From: Escherichia coli
GTDB taxonomy: Bacteria; Pseudomonadota; Gammaproteobacteria; Enterobacterales; Enterobacteriaceae
NCBI RefSeq assembly: GCF_003991155.1
Contig: NZ_CP031293.1
Strand: one strand, 5' to 3'
Length of the DNA: 64,000 nt
The position numbers were made by a program, and so were the translations under genes. The first letter of the stretch is position 1. Each line of letters starts with the position of its first letter. Below the pieces are notes generated by a model. The model saw only the letters and a program-made list of their open reading frames with translations. It did not search any database and had not been told where the DNA came from. Shown here piece by piece: positions 20,190 through 64,000 of this stretch.

Positions 20190-20201
20190 CACGCTACCGC
20201 C
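20190..20201 (-). promoter_or_regulatory. ops element (GGCGGTAGCGTG on the coding strand) within a JUMPstart-like leader of the O-antigen operon
   Basis: Exact reverse complement cacgctaccgcc seen on the + strand in the galF-wzx intergenic region. Confidence 0.8.
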
Positions 20202-20481
20202 CCTGGCTCAACAGCTACCAGCGTACTGCATGCATGTCCTAGTTGTACCTAGCATTAACCGTTATGGTTAGTTCGAAAAGCTTAACTCTGAACGTTTTAC
20301 CAAATCGCTTCAGAGATGGAGAAAATCTCAGCCTCCCACAATAAATGCCTATTGAAAAGTTATTGTTACTCATATTTAGAACGGTATAAAGAAAGAATGA
20401 GGCAATGAGTACAATTAGCCCCACGAATCCTCACCGCCGTTATAATTTTCTTATCAACCGTTACATCCGGTCAGATTTTCA

Positions 20482-26734: not shown

Positions 26735-27312
26735 GCCTGATGCGACGCTAACGCGTCTTATCAGACCTACAAGATCCGAGCACAGAACCGTAGGACGGAT
26801 AAGGCGTTCACGCCGCATCCGGCATTCAGTGCCTGATGCGACGCTGACGCGTCTTATCAGGCCTACAAGACCCGAGCACAGAGCCGTAGGACGGATAAGG
26901 CGTTTTACGCCGCATCCGGCATTCAGTGCCTGATGCGACGCTGACGCGTCTTATCAGGCCTACAAGATCCGAGCACAGAACCGTAGGCCGGATAAGGCGT
27001 TTTACGCCGCATCCGGCATTCAGTGCCTGATGCGACGCTGGCGCGTCTTATCAGGCCTACAAGACCCGAGCACAGCCCCCCAGGACGGATAAGGCGTTTT
27101 ACGCCGCATCCGGCATTCAGTGCCTGATGCGACGCTGACGCGTCTTATCAAGCCTACAAGATCCGAGCACAGAACCGTAGGCCGGATAAGGCGTTTTACG
27201 CCGCATCCGGCATTCAGTGCCTGATGCGACGCTGGCGCGTCTTATCAGGCCTACAAGACCCGAGCACAGCCCCCCAGGACGGATAAGGCGTTTTACGCCG
27301 CATCCGGCAACC
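26735..27312. repeat. Tandem array of about six REP/BIME-like palindromic units (~100 bp each)
   Basis: Repeated gcctgatgcgacgctgacgcgtcttatcaggcctacaag...ccgtaggacggataaggcgtt[tc]acgccgcatccggcattcagt with small variations, between wcaK and wzxC. Confidence 0.9.
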
Positions 27313-31636: not shown

Positions 31637-31726
31637 ATCGTTACCCTTTTTCAGGCAATAGTTGGCCCTGACCGAAACGGCCAATTTTGTTTTTGTCGTT
31701 ATTTACATCGCGGTTTCGCATTCATT

Positions 31727-46167: not shown

Positions 46168-46179
46168 CACGCTACCGCC
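46168..46179 (-). promoter_or_regulatory. ops element (GGCGGTAGCGTG on the coding strand) in the JUMPstart leader of the colanic acid operon
   Basis: Exact reverse complement cacgctaccgcc on the + strand, ~180 nt upstream of the wza start. Confidence 0.8.
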
Positions 46180-46647
46180 CCTGGCTTTTTAGCTACCAAT
46201 ACACTGATTTAGCTTAATTTTTAAAACCCTCTCAACATACAGTCGTTGATGAGAAAGGGTTATTGCGGAAATTAACTTCCGAATATAAGGTGACATTATG
46301 GTAATTGAATATTGGCTCTCCAATAATGCAGGAGGAAGTGTTACAGCTAACGGAATAGCAGGCAAGGTAACAATTCGGCAATTGGCTATTTTTAAGAATT
46401 ATATTAAGTGTCATTCAATATGGTTTTTAGGAGTTTCTTTAGGTTGACAATATTTAATATAGTGTCTCCACATGCGATATTTCTTAAATAATGTTTTATT
46501 ATTACCACTTTTAATTCAGGGATAATGTGAGGTTATAACCCTCAAATAATATGAGATAAATAGTGCTGCAACATTGCATTTTTGCCCCGATTTATCCATG
46601 ATCGAATTGTGACATTTGTCATACAACGAATAGGTTTTGTACTTACT

Positions 46648-48305: not shown

Positions 48306-48644
48306 ATGAGAAAAAAGCTGGCTTTTCTTGATACCAGTCTTGACGATTTACGCGCATTTCCAGAATCGTCTCGACAGGAAATTGGCTATCAACTCGACAG
48401 GATCCAACAAGGGTTAAACCCATACGACTGGAAACCTTTTTCAACTATCGGCCCTGGTGTGCGAGAGATTCGTACTCGCGATGCTGATGGGATCTATCGC
48501 GTCATGTATATCGCAAAATTTGAAGAAGCGGTTTACGTATTGCATTGTTTTCAAAAGAAAACACAGACTACCAGTCAATCGGATGTTGATTTAGCCAAAC
48601 GACGCTATAAAGAACTTGTTCAGGAGCGGAAAAATGAAAATTGA
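48306..48644 (+). CDS. Putative type II toxin, RelE/ParE superfamily (HigB / Gp49-like killer protein)
   Basis: 112-aa ORF with characteristic ...GxGVxExRxRxxxGxYRVxY...VYVLHCFQKKTQTTSQSDVDLAKRR... signature; preceded by -10-like tataat and Shine-Dalgarno aaggatgg; overlaps the downstream HTH gene. Confidence 0.7.
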   Translation: MRKKLAFLDTSLDDLRAFPESSRQEIGYQLDRIQQGLNPYDWKPFSTIGPGVREIRTRDADGIYRVMYIAKFEEAVYVLHCFQKKTQTTSQSDVDLAKRRYKELVQERKNEN

Positions 48645-48924
48645 AACCTTTGATAGTGTGTGGGATGCGGTGAGTGACACCCCTGAACAAGCGGAAAATA
48701 TGCGGATCCGTGCCGAACTTGTAACGATCATTAATAACTGGATTGAACAACAAGGGTTTAGCCAGGCTCAGGCAGCGTCTGCTTTAGGGGTCACTCAACC
48801 TCGCATATCTGAACTTGCCAGAGGTAAGATCCAGATCTTTAGTATCGATAAATTGATCACCATGATGGCTCATGCAGGATTGCATATTCAACGTATTGAA
48901 ATTCAATATCCACATGCTGCTTAG
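48634..48924 (+). CDS. Putative HTH (XRE-family) antitoxin, HigA-like
   Basis: ~96-aa ORF from MKIETFD (alternative start at 48616); helix-turn-helix core (QAQAASALGVTQPRISELARGK); start overlaps the toxin stop (aaATGAaaattga). Confidence 0.7.
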   Translation: MKIETFDSVWDAVSDTPEQAENMRIRAELVTIINNWIEQQGFSQAQAASALGVTQPRISELARGKIQIFSIDKLITMMAHAGLHIQRIEIQYPHAA

Positions 48925-58194: not shown

Positions 58195-60144
58195 TCAGTA
58201 GCGGCTTAAATCAGCCTTCGCCTGAGCCAGTTTTTCTGCCGCCTGACGTAGCTGCTCCATCAACGGCATGGTCCGTGCTGGAGCATGAAGGCGGAATCGC
58301 TGCAACTCTGTCGCACCGACAGTCAACGCCGATTCCAGCCGATGTCGTTTGGCGGTCATTTTCGCCATTACCGCTTGTCTGTCTGCTGGCGTTACCGCTT
58401 CATTCGGCCTGAAAACAAAACGGCGTTCGCAACTCGCTTTCCAGTCGATAACCGCCTGGGTCAGATGATCACCAAAACCTTTTACTTGCTTAACGCTCCG
58501 TCGGGTAACATCTGCGGCGGTTTCAATACCAAAGGACCGTAACGCCGCTTTACGCGCAGGGCCAACGCCGGGAATAGAGGCAACATCAATAAAAAATCCC
58601 TCCAGAAACTTCTGCTTCTGCCGTTCCCTTGCGGTGTCCTGAAGTGCTGCCAGATCGCGCTTTTCTTCTTCCGGTAACCCAAGAATTTCGTCCTTCATTT
58701 TTTCGAGCATCGTCCGTTTGGCGATAAAACCTTCCAGCCCGCCCAACTGTTGGATCTGGCTGACTAAATGGTCATAGTCCATTTTTGCGCGATTAAAAGC
58801 CTCTCTTTGTCGCTGGACTTCTGCTTTGTACGCTTTGCTTGTCAGGCTGCCAATAATCCAGATAGCCGCCAGCACGGGAACCAAAATGATATAACGCGGT
58901 TCTACCTGAAGGCCGCAAAGCAGCAGCGATAACGCTGACAGTGCGATCTCAATCAGAATGATGTATTCACGCCTTAACAGGCCTAAAGGAAGCGGCCTGC
59001 CAGTCGGTTGGAAATGATCGGGTAATGGCAGTTGCAATGCTGGTGGTGCTACTGACGCCATCACCATCGCCCAGACTTTCGCCAGCACAAAATCACCGCT
59101 GGTGGTAATGACCTCTTCGCCGAGATCAATAAAATAGATAACGCCTTGATTATCCAGCGCACACCACGGGCAGTCAGTCAAATGACCGGGGTAAACATGC
59201 ATTGCCGAAACGGTACATTTCTTTAACTGTTGGCGTAGTAAATCAAGTGCCGCAACCCACGCTTTTGCCGTCGGACGCCCGGTTGCCACGCCACTTTCCG
59301 TGAATGCCTGCTGAAACATGGCTTCAACATCACCTGGTAACATCGACAGCGGAATAGATCGTGGCGGCGGTTTTAAACCACGTCGCTGATTATCTGACGC
59401 GTAGGCATAACGGAAATGGGCAATATCCGTCTCCAGCGCATTACCCGCATCAGAGATAAGCGGTACACCGGAATAAGGATGCCGACCACCAAACAAGACG
59501 TGAAAAATCAGCAACGCAAGGCCAAAATTATCGTGATTCGCGGTGCGTTCAAAGCCAACAAATGACGACAAGGTTTGTAGCTCTGGCGGCGTAAAATGCG
59601 ACACGCCAACTTCGCATAAATGCAACGTGCCATTAGCGTTAATCTGAAAGGAGTCGCTATCAATCAACACCACTTTGCTGTCGCGACCTACCATAAAGCT
59701 GTTCTGGTTTACGTCACCCACGACGTGCCCGTGCTCGTGAATCGTAGCAAAAGATGAAGCAATATTGCGCGCAACATAGAGTAGAAAATCCCACGCACAA
59801 TGAGGGTAACTCTGGCGACGATGTGCCGGGCTATAGATCATATGAATCGGTTCTTTACCTGAAACCTTCGGCATCATAAAACCGATAACCTTTCCGCCTC
59901 GTCCACCGTGAAGCGTTGCCTGCGGCCAGGCGACATAATTCAACAATTGCGCGTCAGCTGTCGCAGCCATAAAGGCAAGTTTGTCCTGTTTTAAGGCGGG
60001 TGGCGGCGTGTGATAAATCTTGGCAACGCTATCGGCAAACTCCTCGATATCATAAACCGCACCTTCACCGCCTTTGCCCAGTTCACGGCCTGGCGTAACG
60101 CACTCACCAGTAGCAGTATATAAAGTGGGTTTCATGGTAACCAC
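58195..60144 (-). CDS. yegI: Eukaryotic-like Ser/Thr protein kinase with central TM segment and C-terminal extension
   Basis: 649-aa ORF with kinase-like N-terminus (GKGGEGAVY...AKIY; HGHVVGDVNQNSF; DSDSF); start could be the Met 9 nt downstream. Confidence 0.85.
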   Translation of the reverse strand: MVTMKPTLYTATGECVTPGRELGKGGEGAVYDIEEFADSVAKIYHTPPPALKQDKLAFMAATADAQLLNYVAWPQATLHGGRGGKVIGFMMPKVSGKEPIHMIYSPAHRRQSYPHCAWDFLLYVARNIASSFATIHEHGHVVGDVNQNSFMVGRDSKVVLIDSDSFQINANGTLHLCEVGVSHFTPPELQTLSSFVGFERTANHDNFGLALLIFHVLFGGRHPYSGVPLISDAGNALETDIAHFRYAYASDNQRRGLKPPPRSIPLSMLPGDVEAMFQQAFTESGVATGRPTAKAWVAALDLLRQQLKKCTVSAMHVYPGHLTDCPWCALDNQGVIYFIDLGEEVITTSGDFVLAKVWAMVMASVAPPALQLPLPDHFQPTGRPLPLGLLRREYIILIEIALSALSLLLCGLQVEPRYIILVPVLAAIWIIGSLTSKAYKAEVQRQREAFNRAKMDYDHLVSQIQQLGGLEGFIAKRTMLEKMKDEILGLPEEEKRDLAALQDTARERQKQKFLEGFFIDVASIPGVGPARKAALRSFGIETAADVTRRSVKQVKGFGDHLTQAVIDWKASCERRFVFRPNEAVTPADRQAVMAKMTAKRHRLESALTVGATELQRFRLHAPARTMPLMEQLRQAAEKLAQAKADLSRY

Positions 60145-60893
60145 ATAGCCAGTGCCAACGTTTTATCATCATCCGTACGCTCGTTTACCGCCGGGCTGGA
60201 CAAAAACTGCTTTAACAATTCAGGTAATAAATCGAGTTGTTCCTGCGTTGCTGACGCCAGTCCATTGAAAAACGGGGTAAAGAAAGGCACATGCGGAGAA
60301 TTATCCAGCATATTTAACGCCAGTCTCTGAATACCATCCGTAAATGCTGCAACTCTATGCGCACGCTCAGTGCTGGTGAAAGTTTCCAGTCTGGAAACGG
60401 CATCTTCATCGGTAATGAAATGCGTCATGTTGGCATATTCACCCACCATCGGCGTGAGAGGCAATTGCAGACCGTGACCCAAATCTACCACCACGCCGCC
60501 ATCGCCAATCTGCATAATCAAGGTGCCGTCAGGCGATGAAATCAGTCCCAGAAATGTGCAGGCAAAATCGCGAACCGCTAATTCTTTGGCTTCCGCCTCG
60601 GCAAAAAGTCGCTGACGAACGGTCAGCACAATATCCGTTGCGAGGACATCATTAAGCCCCAATTCCCCGCCCTGCACTTTTTGCATCATATAAGCCATCG
60701 CTTCATTGACGGCAAGCGTCGCACCTTCGCCACCCTGCGAAACGCTGCCTGCGCCATCAGCGACAAATACCGTCAATAATGGCTGCTGGTCTTCTAGCCA
60801 GGCAACCTGCATCTGGCAGGCATCCTGGCAAGGCAAGTCCGCGCTGATGTGCGACGTTCCAACGGTTGATGCATAGACCAGACGCCAGCTCAC
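60132..60893 (-). CDS. yegK: PP2C-family Ser/Thr protein phosphatase
   Basis: 253-aa ORF with PP2C-like metal-binding motifs (VADGAGS, TDG); overlaps yegI start and yegL stop. Confidence 0.85.
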
Positions 60894-61549
60894 ACTGACG
60901 TCCAGCCTTTTGGCGCTTCCAGCACAACTTCCGTTCCCGGCGTGGAGCGGGAAACCGAACGCAGCGAACTGGATAACCAGCTAAACAGTTCACGGAATTG
61001 TAATCCCTGCAGTGGCAAAGGCTGACGAACGCTGATTTGTGCCAAAGTCTTCATATCCGCCCCCTGAACACCGATGGAAAAGAAGGCAAACTTCTTATCT
61101 TCTTCCCCCTGAAACACTTTGTTGGCGGCAGCCTGCCACTCATCGGTTGGAGCGCCATCAGTGATCAGGAAAATCCACGGGCGATAATACGAAATACCAT
61201 TGGCACGATACTCACGTTTGCGCTCCTCAACCATATTCAGGGCTTTGGTAATGGCAGCGCCCATTGGTGTATCGCCCTGGGCAAACAGGATGGGCGGGAA
61301 AAAATTAGCGGCGCTGGTAAAGGGTTGTTCCACATGCACCGGGCCGAACGTCACAATACCGAGTTCCACTCTTTTTAAGGCCAGCGAATCGGCAAGCAGC
61401 TCATCGCGAAAGGTAACCAATCCGGCGTTAAGTTCATTAATGGGTCTACCGTTCATAGAACCAGAAACATCCAGCAGCAAAATGCAGGGGCAACGTGGTT
61501 CCGGGTTACTGGCAAAATCGCTGGTGGCAAACGTGATTTGTTCGCTCAT
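60890..61549 (-). CDS. yegL: von Willebrand factor type A (VWA) domain protein
   Basis: 219-aa ORF with MIDAS-like DVSGSM motif near the N-terminus. Confidence 0.85.
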
Positions 61550-61730
61550 AAGAAATCCTTTCTTAGAGAATTATTGAGGTCCGGTATCATACCGATTGCA
61601 ATAATGAAATAAGAGCAAACGAAGAAACTTTCAGAATTAGGCCCGGCGGCGCAGAAAATTTTGCTATTCGCCTCGCAAGAACGGAGAGCCGTCGATTGAC
61701 ACTAAGGGCGGAGTGACATAATTTCAGGAG

Positions 61731-61858
61731 TGAGGGTTAGGGAGAGGTTTCCCCCTCCCCCTGGTGTTCTTAGTAAGCCTGGAAGCTAATCACTAAGAGT
61801 ATCACCAGTATGATGACGTGCTTCATCATAACCCTTTCCTTATTAAAAGTCCTCTTCT
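61731..61858 (+). ncRNA. Sib-family antisense sRNA, copy 1 (approximate ends)
   Basis: -35 ttgaca (61696..61701), 17-nt spacer, -10 taattt; transcript fully overlaps the ibs ORF on the opposite strand; ends at GC hairpin plus tttcccgttt. Confidence 0.5.
61770..61829 (-). CDS. ibsA: Ibs-family type I toxin peptide, copy 1 (MMKHVIILVILLVISFQAY)
   Basis: 19-codon hydrophobic ORF antisense to the repeat unit; closely resembles IbsA as remembered. Confidence 0.7.
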   Translation of the reverse strand: MMKHVIILVILLVISFQAY

Positions 61859-62064
61859 CCGGGAGAGGGTTTCCCGTTTCAGCGTCCCGCTGAAATCGTC
61901 GGCTTACCTCCTTTCGCCCTGAATGCAGTCTATCGCTAACGCGTGAACAAAATAGTTTCCTCTGTGATTATTGCGTAACGTCTCGCAAAGAATATTTGCT
62001 GGCAGGATCGCAGACTACAAAGCCTGCGGATTGACAATCTGATTGTGAAGGCATACTTTCAGGA

Positions 62065-62207
62065 GTGAGGGTAGAGCGGGGTTTCCCCCGCCCTGGTAGT
62101 CTTAGTAAGCGGGGAAGCTTATGACTAAGAGCACCACGATGATGAGTATCTTCATCATGACCCTTTCCTTATTTAAGGCCCCTTCCTCGGGAGGGGCTTT
62201 CCCGTTT
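62065..62207 (+). ncRNA. Sib-family antisense sRNA, copy 2 (approximate ends)
   Basis: ttgaca -35 at 62031..62036, tacttt -10; terminator hairpin gccccttcctcgggaggggc plus tttcccgttt. Confidence 0.5.
62102..62158 (-). CDS. Ibs-family type I toxin peptide, copy 2 (MMKILIIVVLLVISFPAY)
   Basis: 18-codon hydrophobic ORF at the equivalent place in repeat unit 2. Confidence 0.7.
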   Translation of the reverse strand: MMKILIIVVLLVISFPAY

Positions 62208-62392
62208 CAGCGTCCCGCTGAAATCGTCGGCCTACCTCCTTTTGCCCTGAATACAGTCTATCGCTAACGCGTGAACAAAATAGTTTCCTCTGTGATTATT
62301 GCGTAACGTCTCGCAAAGAATATTTGCTGGCAGGATCGCAGACTACAAAGCCTGCGGATTGACAATCTGATTGTGAAGGCATACTTTCAGGA

Positions 62393-62535
62393 GTGAGGGT
62401 AGAGCGGGGTTTCCCCCGCCCTGGTAGTCTTAGTAAGCGGGGAAGCTTATGACTAAGAGCACCACGATGATGAGTATCTTCATCATGACCCTTTCCTTAT
62501 TTAAGGCCCCTTCCTCGGGAGGGGCTTTCCCGTTT
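62393..62535 (+). ncRNA. Sib-family antisense sRNA, copy 3 (approximate ends)
   Basis: Same promoter and terminator architecture as copy 2. Confidence 0.5.
62430..62486 (-). CDS. Ibs-family type I toxin peptide, copy 3 (MMKILIIVVLLVISFPAY)
   Basis: 18-codon ORF identical in protein to copy 2. Confidence 0.7.
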   Translation of the reverse strand: MMKILIIVVLLVISFPAY

Positions 62536-62720
62536 CAGCGTCCCGCTGAAATCGTCGGCCTACCTCCTTTTGCCCTGAATACAGTCTATCGCTAACGCGT
62601 GAACAAAATAGTTTCCCCTGTGATTATTGCGTAACGACTCGCAAAGAATATTTGCTGGCAGGATCGCAGACTACAAAGCCTGCGGATTGACAATCTGATT
62701 GTGAAGGCATACTTTCAGGA

Positions 62721-62863
62721 GTGAGGGTAGAGCGGGGTTTCCCCCGCCCTGGTAGTCTTAGTAAGCCGGGAAGCTTATGACTAAGAGCACCACGATGATG
62801 ATCCACTTCATCATGACCCTTTCCTTATTTAAGGCCCCTTCCTCGGGAGGGGCTTTCCCGTTT
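62721..62863 (+). ncRNA. Sib-family antisense sRNA, copy 4 (approximate ends)
   Basis: Same promoter and terminator architecture. Confidence 0.5.
62758..62814 (-). CDS. Ibs-family type I toxin peptide, copy 4 (MMKWIIIVVLLVISFPAY)
   Basis: 18-codon ORF; differs from copies 2 and 3 at positions 4-5. Confidence 0.65.
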   Translation of the reverse strand: MMKWIIIVVLLVISFPAY

Positions 62864-63048
62864 CAGCGTCCCGCTGAAATCATCGGCTTACCTCCTTTCG
62901 CCCTGAATGCAGTCTATCGCTGACTTGCGGATAAAATAGTTTCACATGTGATTATTGCGTGACGTCTCGCAAAGAATATTTGCTGGCAGGATCGCAGACT
63001 GCAAAGCCTGCGGATTGACAATCGGACCGTGAAGGCATACTTTCAGGA

Positions 63049-63191
63049 GTGAGGGTAGAGCGGGGTTTCCCCCGCCCTGGTAGTCTTAGTATGCTGGGTA
63101 GCTAATCACTAAGAGCACCACGATGATGAGTAGCTTCATCATGACCCTTTCCTTATTTAAGGCCCCTTCCTCGGGAGGGGCTTTCCCGTTT
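63049..63191 (+). ncRNA. Sib-family antisense sRNA, copy 5 (approximate ends)
   Basis: ttgaca at 63015..63020; terminator plus tttcccgttt near 63183. Confidence 0.5.
63086..63142 (-). CDS. Ibs-family type I toxin peptide, copy 5 (MMKLLIIVVLLVISYPAY)
   Basis: 18-codon ORF; variant C-terminal region. Confidence 0.65.
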   Translation of the reverse strand: MMKLLIIVVLLVISYPAY

Positions 63192-63420
63192 CAGCGTCCC
63201 GCTGAAATCATCGGCTTACCTCCTTTCGCCCTGAATGCAGTCTATCGCTAACGCGTAGATAAAATAGTTTCCTGTGTTATTACTGGATGCGTGCTCGCAA
63301 AAGTGCCTGCCATTCAGACGATTCCCGACAGTGTTTCATAATTCCTCCATTTTTCTCCCTTATTGGCTGGCTACACTAGTATCATTCCGCGAAACGTTTC
63401 AGGAAGAGAAACTCTTAACG

Positions 63421-64000
63421 ATGAAAGGCAGTTATAAATCCCGTTGGGTAATCGTAATCGTGGTGGTTATCGCCGCCATCGCCGCATTCTGGTTCTGGCA
63501 AGGCCGCAATGACTCCCGGAGTGCAGCCTCAGGGGCGACGAAACAAGCGCAGCAATCGCCAGCGGGTGGTCGCCGTGGTATGCGTGCCGGTCCATTAGCC
63601 CCGGTTCAGGCAGCGACCGCCGTAGAACAAGCTGTGCCACGTTATCTCACCGGGCTTGGCACCATTACCGCCGCTAATACTGTTACGGTGCGCAGCCGCG
63701 TGGACGGTCAACTGATGGCGTTGCATTTCCAGGAAGGCCAGCAGGTCAAAGCTGGCGATTTACTGGCAGAAATTGACCCCAGCCAGTTCAAAGTTGCATT
63801 AGCACAAGCCCAGGGCCAACTGGCAAAAGATAAAGCCACGCTTGCCAACGCCCGCCGTGACCTGGCGCGTTATCAACAACTGGTAAAAACCAATCTCGTA
63901 TCTCGTCAGGAACTGGATGCCCAACAAGCGCTGGTCAGTGAAACCGAAGGTACCATTAAGGCTGATGAAGCAAGCGTCGCCAGCGCGCAATTGCAACTCG
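63421..64000 (+). CDS. mdtA: Multidrug efflux RND membrane-fusion protein, N-terminal part (3' end lies outside the window)
   Basis: ATG at 63421 followed by [30 protein letters not shown]...; open to the window end; not in the ORF track because no stop is reached. Confidence 0.85.

What the first reader, a model, noticed from the sequence alone, without database searches (positions are those of the whole stretch)
61660..63260. Five tandem ibs/sib type I toxin-antitoxin units between yegL and mdtA
The ~330-bp unit is repeated five times head-to-tail. Each unit carries an 18-19-codon hydrophobic Ibs-like ORF on the minus strand and a convergent promoter and terminator consistent with a ~140-nt antisense Sib RNA on the + strand. 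The peptides vary (MMKHVIILVILLVISFQAY; MMKILIIVVLLVISFPAY twice; MMKWIIIVVLLVISFPAY; MMKLLIIVVLLVISYPAY). As I remember, the K-12 annotation names two units (sibA/ibsA, sibB/ibsB) at this locus; five copies here would be an expansion, but I cannot verify the reference copy number without alignment.
Basis: partly seen in the sequence, partly recalled or inferred. Interest (0 to 1): 0.6.

Follow-up and report, generated by a model that had tools for sequence, protein, structure and literature searches.

The report
Five tandem ibs/sib toxin-antitoxin units
This is a real but ordinary array of five copies of a well-known E. coli toxin/antisense-RNA module (Ibs/Sib); K-12 has two copies at the same spot, copy number varies between strains, and this exact five-copy array is already present and annotated in 35 public complete genomes.

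Summary
Window 61696-63301 holds five head-to-tail ~328-bp units. Each unit has a full-length Rfam SIB_RNA hit (139-150 bits, threshold 56) on the + strand.

The window is E. coli, 100% identical to strain 2016C-3878, where RefSeq already annotates ibsA plus four "Ibs family toxin" genes. K-12 MG1655 has two units (sibA/ibsA, sibB/ibsB) in the same yegL-mdtA gap, so five is an expansion of exactly 3 x 328 bp.

By gap size, 5,422 complete genomes divide as follows: about 43% have two or fewer units, 40% three, 11.5% four, and 0.8% (42) five. Thirty-five carry this identical array and one carries an independently arranged five-unit array.

A close relative (strain 980-2) differs only by one clean 328-bp indel, and the unit 2-3 spacer is a chimera of its neighbours. 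The fifth unit therefore arose by a single unequal crossover.

Tandem duplication and strain-to-strain variation of ibs/sib are already in the literature. Verdict: already known, low interest.

The parts
61696..63301 (.). Whole tandem array: five ibs/sib units, one sibA type followed by four sibB type, period 328 bp
   Evidence: Tandem Repeats Finder, direct-repeat families and five Rfam hits. The homology of the last unit's spacer ends at about 63301 (family D2).
60890..61549 (-). yegL (vWA-domain protein), left flanking gene
   Evidence: RefSeq annotation of the 100%-identical record, mapped as window = L001 + 59899.
63421..64000 (+). mdtA 5' part (RND efflux adaptor), right flanking gene; runs off the end of the window
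   Evidence: RefSeq annotation; ATG confirmed at 63421.
61696..61731 (+). Sib1 promoter: TTGACA (-35), 17-nt spacer, TAATTT (-10), 7 nt to the +1 G
   Evidence: Alignment to K-12 sibA with its annotated 5' end. The hexamers were read from the sequence. The promoter was too weak for the consensus scan.
61732..61875 (+). Sib1 antitoxin RNA (SibA type, 144 nt), including the terminator hairpin at 61847-61872
   Evidence: Rfam 149.5 bits. Ends mapped from the K-12 sibA annotation. Two nucleotides differ from K-12 SibA, both in the terminator stem. Canonical fold, MFE -52.9 kcal/mol, z -3.35.
61770..61829 (-). ibsA toxin ORF, MMKHVIILVILLVISFQAY (19 aa)
   Evidence: Translation. Identical to K-12 IbsA. 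RefSeq WP_010723109.1 ibsA.
62031..62066 (+). Sib2 promoter: TTGACA, 17-nt spacer, TACTTT, 7 nt to +1. The same element recurs at 62359-62394, 62687-62722 and 63015-63050 for Sib3-5
   Evidence: Alignment A1 with the K-12 sibB 5' end.
62067..62202 (+). Sib2 antitoxin RNA (SibB type, 136 nt)
   Evidence: Rfam 141.2 bits. Ends mapped from K-12 sibB. Two nucleotides differ from K-12 SibB. Fold MFE -62.5 kcal/mol, z -4.27.
62102..62158 (-). ibs unit 2, MMKILIIVVLLVISFPAY (18 aa; one residue differs from K-12 IbsB)
   Evidence: RefSeq WP_100792650.1.
62395..62530 (+). Sib3 antitoxin RNA, identical in sequence to Sib2
   Evidence: Rfam 141.2 bits; zero differences from Sib2.
62430..62486 (-). ibs unit 3, MMKILIIVVLLVISFPAY (identical to unit 2)
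   Evidence: RefSeq WP_100792650.1.
62723..62858 (+). Sib4 antitoxin RNA (136 nt). Differs from Sib2 at 5 positions: 1 in TRD1 and 4 in the P6 loop
   Evidence: Rfam 140.2 bits; fold z -4.65.
62758..62814 (-). ibs unit 4, MMKWIIIVVLLVISFPAY
   Evidence: RefSeq WP_012767741.1, also present in E. coli B.
63051..63186 (+). Sib5 antitoxin RNA (136 nt). Differs from Sib2 at 6 positions: 5 in TRD1 and 1 in the P6 loop
   Evidence: Rfam 138.9 bits; fold z -4.16.
63086..63142 (-). ibs unit 5, MMKLLIIVVLLVISYPAY (one residue differs from K-12 IbsB)
   Evidence: RefSeq WP_001386901.1.
61926..62253 (.). The 328-bp segment that is the only difference from the four-unit array of strain 980-2. Its exact placement is ambiguous within the repeat. 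It marks the most recent duplication, of the MMKILII unit
   Evidence: Pairwise alignment A3: every other intergenic base is identical. The unit 2-3 spacer is a chimera of the two neighbouring spacers.

Best explanation
The region is an array of five tandem Ibs/Sib type I toxin-antitoxin modules at the chromosomal sibA/sibB locus of E. coli. In each ~328-bp unit a sigma-70 promoter on the + strand drives a 136-144-nt structured Sib RNA that ends at an intrinsic terminator. The opposite strand carries an ibs mRNA whose ribosome-binding site and whole 18-19-codon ORF lie inside the Sib gene.

By homology to the K-12 modules studied experimentally, Sib pairs with its ibs mRNA through two recognition domains. 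TRD1 targets a site inside the ORF and TRD2 targets the translation-initiation region. Pairing blocks expression and leads to mRNA decay. If Ibs is made, the hydrophobic peptide enters the inner membrane and arrests growth.

The array grows and shrinks by unequal homologous recombination between units. The latest step here was a duplication of the MMKILII unit, turning a four-unit array into five. Units 2 and 3 are therefore redundant. Units 2-5 share an identical TRD2 but differ in TRD1 and the P6 loop, so partial cross-repression among them is expected.

Shown here: sequence identity, family membership, anatomy, population distribution and the recombination footprint. Inferred: transcription, toxicity, repression and cross-talk.
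For: Five full-length SIB_RNA hits score 139-150 bits against a threshold of 56. Five intact ibs ORFs with Shine-Dalgarno sequences lie wholly inside the Sib genes on the opposite strand. Unit 1 encodes a peptide identical to K-12 IbsA, and units 2/3, 4 and 5 are 1, 2 and 1 residues from K-12 IbsB. RefSeq names them ibsA plus four Ibs family toxins. The locus is orthologous to K-12 sibA-sibB between yegL and mdtA. Sib 5' and 3' ends, the -35 box and the terminators align with the annotated K-12 RNAs. All distinct Sibs fold into the same P1-closed multi-hairpin shape plus an 11-bp terminator, with z from -3.4 to -4.7. The mechanism (cognate-specific repression through TRD1 and TRD2, mRNA degradation) comes from PMC2943612. 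Tandem duplication and lineage-specific copy gain come from PMC2887945. Salmonella IbsA is reported to cause growth arrest by inhibiting the Fo sector of ATP synthase (bioRxiv 10.1101/2025.05.26.656083). The crossover is supported by strain 980-2, which is identical at every intergenic base except one 328-bp indel, and by the chimeric unit 2-3 spacer. All 9 variable Sib positions among the sibB-type units fall in the TRD1 or P6 segments.
Against: There are no expression data for this strain. The -10 hexamers are weak (3 of 6), and the consensus scan found no promoter in the array. No good sigma-70 match lies upstream of the ibs ORFs, and ibs mRNA ends are poorly defined even in K-12. K-12 ibsB is annotated only as a 'putative' toxic peptide. 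The peptides are too short for the profile-HMM tools, so toxin membership rests on identity to K-12 peptides and on the RefSeq names. The predicted cross-talk through the shared TRD2 is extrapolated from SibC/SibD experiments.
Confidence: 0.93

Rival explanations
1. The five-unit count is an assembly artefact, a mis-expanded or mis-collapsed 328-bp repeat.
For: Units 2 and 3 are 99.4% identical over 328 bp. Short-read assemblers can miscount repeats of this kind.
Against: Thirty-five independently assembled complete genomes carry the same array at 99.9% identity or better. They come from humans, cattle, dogs, cats, pigs, sheep, chickens, mink, rivers and wastewater, and were sequenced by many laboratories. 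Neighbouring states with four units (980-2 and three others) and a separate five-unit arrangement are also assembled cleanly.
Confidence: 0.02
2. Some of the extra units are silent or decaying relics that no longer make toxin or antitoxin.
For: There is no transcript evidence here. The -10 boxes are weak. K-12 IbsB is only a 'putative' toxin. Copy number fluctuates freely between strains, which fits weak selection on individual units.
Against: All five ORFs, start codons, Shine-Dalgarno sequences, -35 boxes, Sib helices and terminators are intact. Rfam scores are uniformly high. Within the sibB-type units the Sib RNA diverges about three times more slowly than the spacer (4-7% against 13-15%), which indicates purifying selection on the RNA.
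Confidence: 0.08
3. The expansion is adaptive. The units are functionally orthogonal modules, each Sib controlling only its own Ibs, and they give the cell several independently regulated toxins.
For: In K-12, Sib RNAs repress only cognate ibs mRNAs, apart from ibsA. Here all 9 variable Sib sites among units 2, 4 and 5 lie in the TRD1 or P6 segments. The chance of that is p about 8e-6 against the whole RNA and p about 0.02 if variation is confined to the ORF. Four of the five TRD1 changes in unit 5 are synonymous, so they alter pairing without altering the peptide.
Against: TRD2 is identical in units 2-5, and either TRD alone sufficed for repression in SibC, so cross-repression is likely. Units 2 and 3 are identical and cannot be orthogonal. 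Five-unit arrays are rare at 0.8%, and most strains manage with two or three units, which suggests neutral copy-number drift.
Confidence: 0.25

Closest known systems
E. coli K-12 sibA/ibsA and sibB/ibsB locus (yegL-mdtA intergenic region; formerly QUAD/SIB repeats)
   Same: It occupies the same chromosomal gap with the same flanking genes and orientation. Unit 1 matches K-12 sibA/ibsA: the peptide is identical and the RNA differs at 2 nt. Units 2-5 are sibB/ibsB variants whose RNAs differ from K-12 SibB at 2-6 nt and whose peptides differ at 1-2 residues.
   Different: There are five units instead of two (+984 bp). Three IbsB-like peptide alleles (MMKILII.., MMKWIII....SYPAY) are absent from K-12 but already have RefSeq accessions.
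Five-unit arrays in other E. coli genomes (35 identical, e.g. CREC-544, MRY15-117, AR Bank #0349; plus ARS-C301)
   Same: Thirty-five genomes have the same sequence at 99.9% identity or better and the same annotation. ARS-C301 has five units at the same locus built from overlapping peptide alleles.
   Different: ARS-C301 orders the alleles differently (IbsA, IbsB, SYPAY type, then MMKILII twice) and is a singleton, so it arose independently.
Four-unit arrays (strain 980-2 lineage; E. coli B / BL21 / ATCC 11303)
   Same: Strain 980-2 is base-for-base identical apart from lacking one MMKILII unit. E. coli B shares the MMKWIII allele.
   Different: They have one unit fewer. This is the apparent parental state of the window's array.
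Other tandemly duplicated type I TA loci (ldr/rdl, sibD/sibE, zorO/orzO)
   Same: Each is a small hydrophobic toxin with an antisense RNA, duplicated within one intergenic region, and copy number varies by lineage (PMC2887945).
   Different: They belong to different sequence families and sit at different loci. In Ibs/Sib the antitoxin covers the entire toxin ORF and its ribosome-binding site.

Membership tests
Sib antitoxin RNA (Rfam RF00113 SIB_RNA) | Sequence and structure match to the family covariance model above the curated gathering score | tested here: met
   Five hits cover the full model (1-147) at 138.9-149.5 bits against a threshold of 56.
Sib antitoxin RNA (Rfam RF00113 SIB_RNA) | Secondary structure with a closing P1 stem, internal hairpins, a single-stranded J1/7 segment and a terminator hairpin | tested here: met
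   All four distinct sequences give this shape as both the minimum-energy and centroid fold, with z from -3.35 to -4.65. The shape matches the description in PMC2943612.
Sib antitoxin RNA (Rfam RF00113 SIB_RNA) | Own promoter and terminator giving a discrete ~140-nt transcript | tested here: inconclusive
   The -35 box, spacing, +1 position and terminator align with the annotated K-12 sibA and sibB ends. The -10 is weak and the consensus scan missed it. The transcripts themselves cannot be observed with these tools.
Ibs type I toxin | An 18-19-residue hydrophobic peptide homologous to IbsA-E | tested here: met
   Unit 1 is identical to K-12 IbsA, and units 2-5 are 1-2 residues from K-12 IbsB. 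RefSeq/PGAP names all five as Ibs family toxins. Profile-HMM tools could not be run because the peptides are below the 20-residue minimum.
Ibs/Sib type I toxin-antitoxin module | The toxin ORF and its ribosome-binding site lie entirely within the antitoxin gene and antisense to it | tested here: met
   Each ibs ORF occupies Sib positions +36 to +92, and the Shine-Dalgarno sequence lies within TRD2 at +92 to +111.
Ibs/Sib type I toxin-antitoxin module | Orthologous genomic position (the yegL-mdtA gap, which is the sibA/sibB locus) | tested here: met
   The flanking genes are the same as in K-12.
Ibs/Sib type I toxin-antitoxin module | Ibs overproduction is toxic and is repressed by the cognate Sib | not testable with these tools
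   This is known for the K-12 pairs (PMC2943612). It needs induction and co-transformation experiments for the variant alleles.

The most novel reading that the evidence does not exclude
The sibB-type units are diverging under selection at the RNA-recognition domains. Every variable Sib site lies in TRD1 or the P6 loop, and many of the changes are synonymous. On this reading the array is a snapshot of how new, partly orthogonal toxin-antitoxin specificities are born by unequal crossover followed by changes in the recognition domains. In addition, the 3' end of the last Sib serves as an attachment site for lambdoid prophages in other strains, which would link array dynamics to phage integration.
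Probability: 0.2. Interest if true: 0.35.

Novelty: already known. Interest (0 to 1): 0.12.

Why it matters
It matters little beyond bookkeeping. The family, its mechanism, its tandem organisation and its strain-to-strain copy variation are all published, and this exact array is already in RefSeq with its toxin genes named.

The modest additions are these:
- A population-scale size distribution for the locus: two and three units dominate, four is about 11.5%, and five is about 0.8%.
- A clean example of a single unequal-crossover step from four to five units with zero other changes.
- The observation that variation among sibB-type RNAs is confined to the known specificity segments.
- A practical note that RefSeq annotates the ibs genes in this strain but not the sib RNA genes.

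Tried and rejected
- The sigma-70 and terminator consensus scan found nothing useful in the array. A relaxed scan for ibs promoters on the minus strand also found nothing at 8 of 12 matches or better. The Sib promoter was therefore placed by alignment to the annotated K-12 ends, and the ibs promoter is left unassigned.
- The original Fozo 2008 paper could not be retrieved by PubMed id or by a guessed PMC id. I relied on PMC2887945 and PMC2943612.
- Whole-locus BLAST coverage does not discriminate copy number, because off-diagonal pieces get joined. I switched to flank-only queries and used the tool's joining distance as a ruler.
- I could count but not list the 11 or fewer genomes whose gap has six-unit size, so arrays of six or more units remain unconfirmed. 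The larger gaps I inspected were an ISEc13 insertion and prophage insertions, not bigger arrays.
- Searching with the ARS-C301 array surfaced no six-unit relatives.
- Profile-HMM searches of the peptides are impossible because they have 18-19 residues.
- A literature search for prophage integration at yegL-mdtA found nothing relevant.
Full report

Yes. Tandem Repeats Finder reports a single array at 61717-63282 with period 328, 4.8 copies, 93% matches and score 2619. The direct-repeat finder places five copies in register at 328-332-bp spacing. Rfam gives five full-length matches to SIB_RNA (RF00113) on the + strand at 61696-61844, 62031-62173, 62359-62501, 62687-62829 and 63015-63157. These score 138.9-149.5 bits against a gathering score of 56.

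On the minus strand, inside each hit, there is an ATGATGAA-initiated ORF behind an AAGGAAAGGG Shine-Dalgarno sequence:

| Unit | ibs ORF (minus strand) | Peptide |
|---|---|---|
| 1 | 61770-61829 | MMKHVIILVILLVISFQAY |
| 2 | 62102-62158 | MMKILIIVVLLVISFPAY |
| 3 | 62430-62486 | MMKILIIVVLLVISFPAY |
| 4 | 62758-62814 | MMKWIIIVVLLVISFPAY |
| 5 | 63086-63142 | MMKLLIIVVLLVISYPAY |

Units 2 and 3 are 99.4% identical. Units 2 and 3 against unit 4 are 93.9% identical. All other pairs are 78-85% identical.

**2. What is it, and where does it come from?**

The window is Escherichia coli. The stretch 61400-63600 is 100% identical to the chromosome of strain 2016C-3878 (NZ_CP029747.1). RefSeq annotates yegL, ibsA, four "type I toxin-antitoxin system Ibs family toxin" genes and mdtA across it.

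In K-12 MG1655 the same gap holds sibA/ibsA and sibB/ibsB only. The yegL-mdtA distance is 887 bp in K-12 and 1871 bp here, a difference of exactly 3 x 328 bp. K-12 IbsA is identical to the unit 1 peptide. K-12 IbsB (MMKLLIIVVLLVISFPAY) differs by one residue from units 2, 3 and 5 and by two from unit 4.

The wider neighbourhood is ordinary core chromosome: the colanic-acid cluster, yegH, asmA, dcd, udk, dgcE, alkA, yegD, yegI, pphC and yegL.

**3. Anatomy**

I aligned the five units with K-12 sibA-E taken with 30-nt flanks and transferred the annotated RNA ends.

| RNA | Window coordinates | Length |
|---|---|---|
| Sib1 | 61732-61875 | 144 nt |
| Sib2 | 62067-62202 | 136 nt |
| Sib3 | 62395-62530 | 136 nt |
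| Sib4 | 62723-62858 | 136 nt |
| Sib5 | 63051-63186 | 136 nt |

- **Promoter.** Each RNA is preceded by TTGACA, a 17-nt spacer, TAATTT (unit 1) or TACTTT (units 2-5), and 7 nt to a +1 G. This -10 is too weak for the consensus scan, which found nothing in the array.
- **Fold.** Each RNA folds into the published Sib shape: a P1 closing stem, three internal hairpins, a single-stranded J1/7 segment and an 11-bp GC-rich terminator followed by CUUUCCC. MFE runs from -52.9 to -62.5 kcal/mol and z from -3.35 to -4.65.
- **Overlap.** The ibs ORF occupies Sib positions +36 to +92, so the antitoxin covers the whole toxin ORF and its ribosome-binding site.
- **ibs promoter.** I could not place an ibs promoter. 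Even for K-12 the ibs mRNA ends are described as poorly defined, and they were mapped only for ibsC and ibsD.

**4. Mechanism (by homology; not tested here)**

Han et al. 2010 (PMC2943612) showed that Sib RNAs repress only their cognate ibs mRNA, with ibsA as the exception. Repression works through two independent recognition domains. TRD1 (SibC +46 to +68) targets the ORF. TRD2 (+99 to +115) targets the translation-initiation region, needs the P1 stem and is helped by the P6 loop. Repression leads to mRNA decay. A 2025 preprint reports that Salmonella IbsA arrests growth by binding the a and b subunits of Fo ATP synthase.

Mapping these domains onto the window gives the following:
- TRD2 is identical in units 2-5 and differs at 3 positions from unit 1.
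- TRD1 is identical in units 2 and 3, differs at 1 position in unit 4 and at 5 positions in unit 5.
- The P6 segment differs at 4 positions in unit 4 and at 1 position in unit 5.

Among the sibB-type RNAs, all 9 variable positions lie in the TRD1 or P6 segments. The chance of that is p about 8e-6 against the whole RNA, and p about 0.02 if variation is confined to the ORF. Four of the five TRD1 changes in unit 5 are synonymous. The RNA diverges at 4-7% while the spacer diverges at 13-15%.

My inference is that Sib2 and Sib3 are redundant, and that Sib2-5 probably cross-repress through the shared TRD2 while differing in TRD1. This reproduces the published pattern of variable specificity domains rather than revealing a new one.

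**5. How the fifth unit arose**

Strain 980-2 has flanks 100% identical to the window and four units: IbsA, MMKILII, MMKWIII and SYPAY. Aligning the complete intergenic regions shows identity at every base except one clean 328-bp indel.

The two differences between units 2 and 3 both lie in the spacer. The unit 2-3 spacer carries the 5' variants of the spacer downstream of the MMKILII unit and the 3' variants of the spacer downstream of unit 1. This is the footprint of one unequal crossover in a four-unit parent, with no later mutation. A deletion from five units to four would give the same pair of sequences, but the chimeric spacer makes the five-unit state the derived one.

**6. How unusual is five?**

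I used flank-only queries (a yegL side plus an mdtA side). The tool joins the two flanks only when the gap is no larger than half the query length plus 500 bp, so the count of joined genomes acts as a ruler. The cumulative counts among 5,422 matching complete genomes were: gap up to 1051 bp, 2308; up to 1379, 4482; up to 1707, 5107; up to 2035, 5149; up to 2170, 5153; up to 2240, 5164; up to 2363, 5247. The expected gaps are 887, 1215, 1543, 1871 and 2199 bp for 2 to 6 units.

| Gap class | Genomes | Share |
|---|---|---|
| two or fewer units | 2308 | about 43% |
| three units | 2174 | about 40% |
| four units | 625 | about 11.5% |
| five-unit size | 42 | about 0.8% |
| 2035-2170 bp | 4 | - |
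| six-unit size (2170-2240 bp) | at most 11 | about 0.2% |
| IS-like sizes (2240-2363 bp) | 83 | about 1.5% |
| larger gap or flanks unlinked | about 175 | about 3.2% |

The classes are approximate because IS elements can inflate a gap. Examples are IS1 in MB46, IS150 in PRO_A-1412 and ISEc13 in EC22.

Thirty-five genomes carry the window's array at 99.9% identity or better. They come from humans, cattle, dogs, cats, pigs, sheep, chickens, mink, rivers and wastewater. That rules out an assembly artefact. ARS-C301 has a differently ordered five-unit array (IbsA, IbsB type, SYPAY type, then MMKILII twice) and is a singleton, so the five-unit state has arisen at least twice. In every comparison array, Rfam finds one Sib per annotated ibs gene.

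**7. Comparison with what is known**

Fozo et al. 2010 (PMC2887945) state that ibs-sib is repeated several times within the same intergenic region. They also report that lineage-specific duplications occur and that O157:H7 Sakai has seven Ibs genes. All defining features of the family that can be tested computationally are met (see the membership table). Toxicity and repression cannot be tested here. The three non-K-12 peptide alleles already have non-redundant RefSeq accessions shared with other strains.

**8. Verdict**

Both the observation and the interpretation are right. Five units is a genuine expansion relative to K-12 and lies in the upper tail of the species distribution. It is nonetheless a known, annotated state of a known polymorphic locus, produced by ordinary unequal recombination. 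Novelty: already known. Interest: low (0.12).

The least ordinary reading that remains possible is that the array records the birth of new antitoxin specificities, and that the last Sib doubles as a prophage attachment site in other strains. I give that about 0.2 probability and modest interest.

Noticed in passing
L009 4640-5005 and L010 4640-5005 (E. coli ESBL 15 and Z1323CEC0005); corresponds to window ~63150-63420: In these strains a lambdoid prophage (tyrosine integrase plus excisionase) sits directly upstream of mdtA. Homology to the window resumes at CCTTATTTAAGGCCCC, inside the 3' end (J1/7 segment and terminator) of the last Sib. The Sib 3' end therefore appears to be a phage attachment site, much like integration into the 3' ends of tRNA and tmRNA genes. 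No Sib remains between int and mdtA. A literature search found no description of this site.
   Followed up: partly
window 61696-63301 (L001/L011 annotation): The RefSeq record for the identical strain annotates all five ibs CDSs but none of the five sib RNA genes. The curated K-12 record annotates both.
   Followed up: yes
window ~59400-60130 region (yegI/pphC junction) versus K-12 L002: K-12 has yegJ between yegI and pphC, whereas in this strain yegI abuts pphC directly. This ~735-bp presence/absence polymorphism showed up as three-piece alignments in many genomes.
   Followed up: no
window 48306-48924 (+): A RelE/ParE-family type II toxin gene followed by a helix-turn-helix gene lies between asmA and yegH, according to the RefSeq annotation of the identical record. 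I did not check whether K-12 has it.
   Followed up: no
window 26793-27251 (+): Five tandem Rfam naRNA4 (CssrE; nucleoid-associated ncRNA, REP-type) matches are spaced about 97 bp apart, at 63-78 bits against a threshold of 59.5.
   Followed up: no
window 46168-46206 (-) and 20190-20228 (-): There are two JUMPstart elements. The first lies just upstream of wza at the head of the colanic-acid cluster. The second is presumably at the head of another polysaccharide cluster, possibly the O-antigen cluster, but I did not check.
   Followed up: partly
window 31641-31690 (-): An Rfam algC RNA motif (78 bits against a threshold of 33.8) lies immediately downstream of cpsB in the colanic-acid cluster.
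   Followed up: no
window 62121-62267, 62449-62595, 62777-62923, 63123-63251 (+): Repeated 42-48-codon ORFs on the Sib strand (for example MTKSTTMMSIFIMTLSLFKAPSSGGAFPFQRPAEIVGLPPFALNTVYR) start inside each Sib and run through its terminator. They are not annotated in RefSeq and are most likely a by-product of the ATGATGA/TCATCAT symmetry at the ibs start.
   Followed up: no
L006 9702-11075 (E. coli EC22): An ISEc13 (IS4-like) element is inserted between the second and third units of a four-unit array. IS1 and IS150 insertions were also seen in the array in other strains, so the array is a recurrent IS target.
   Followed up: partly
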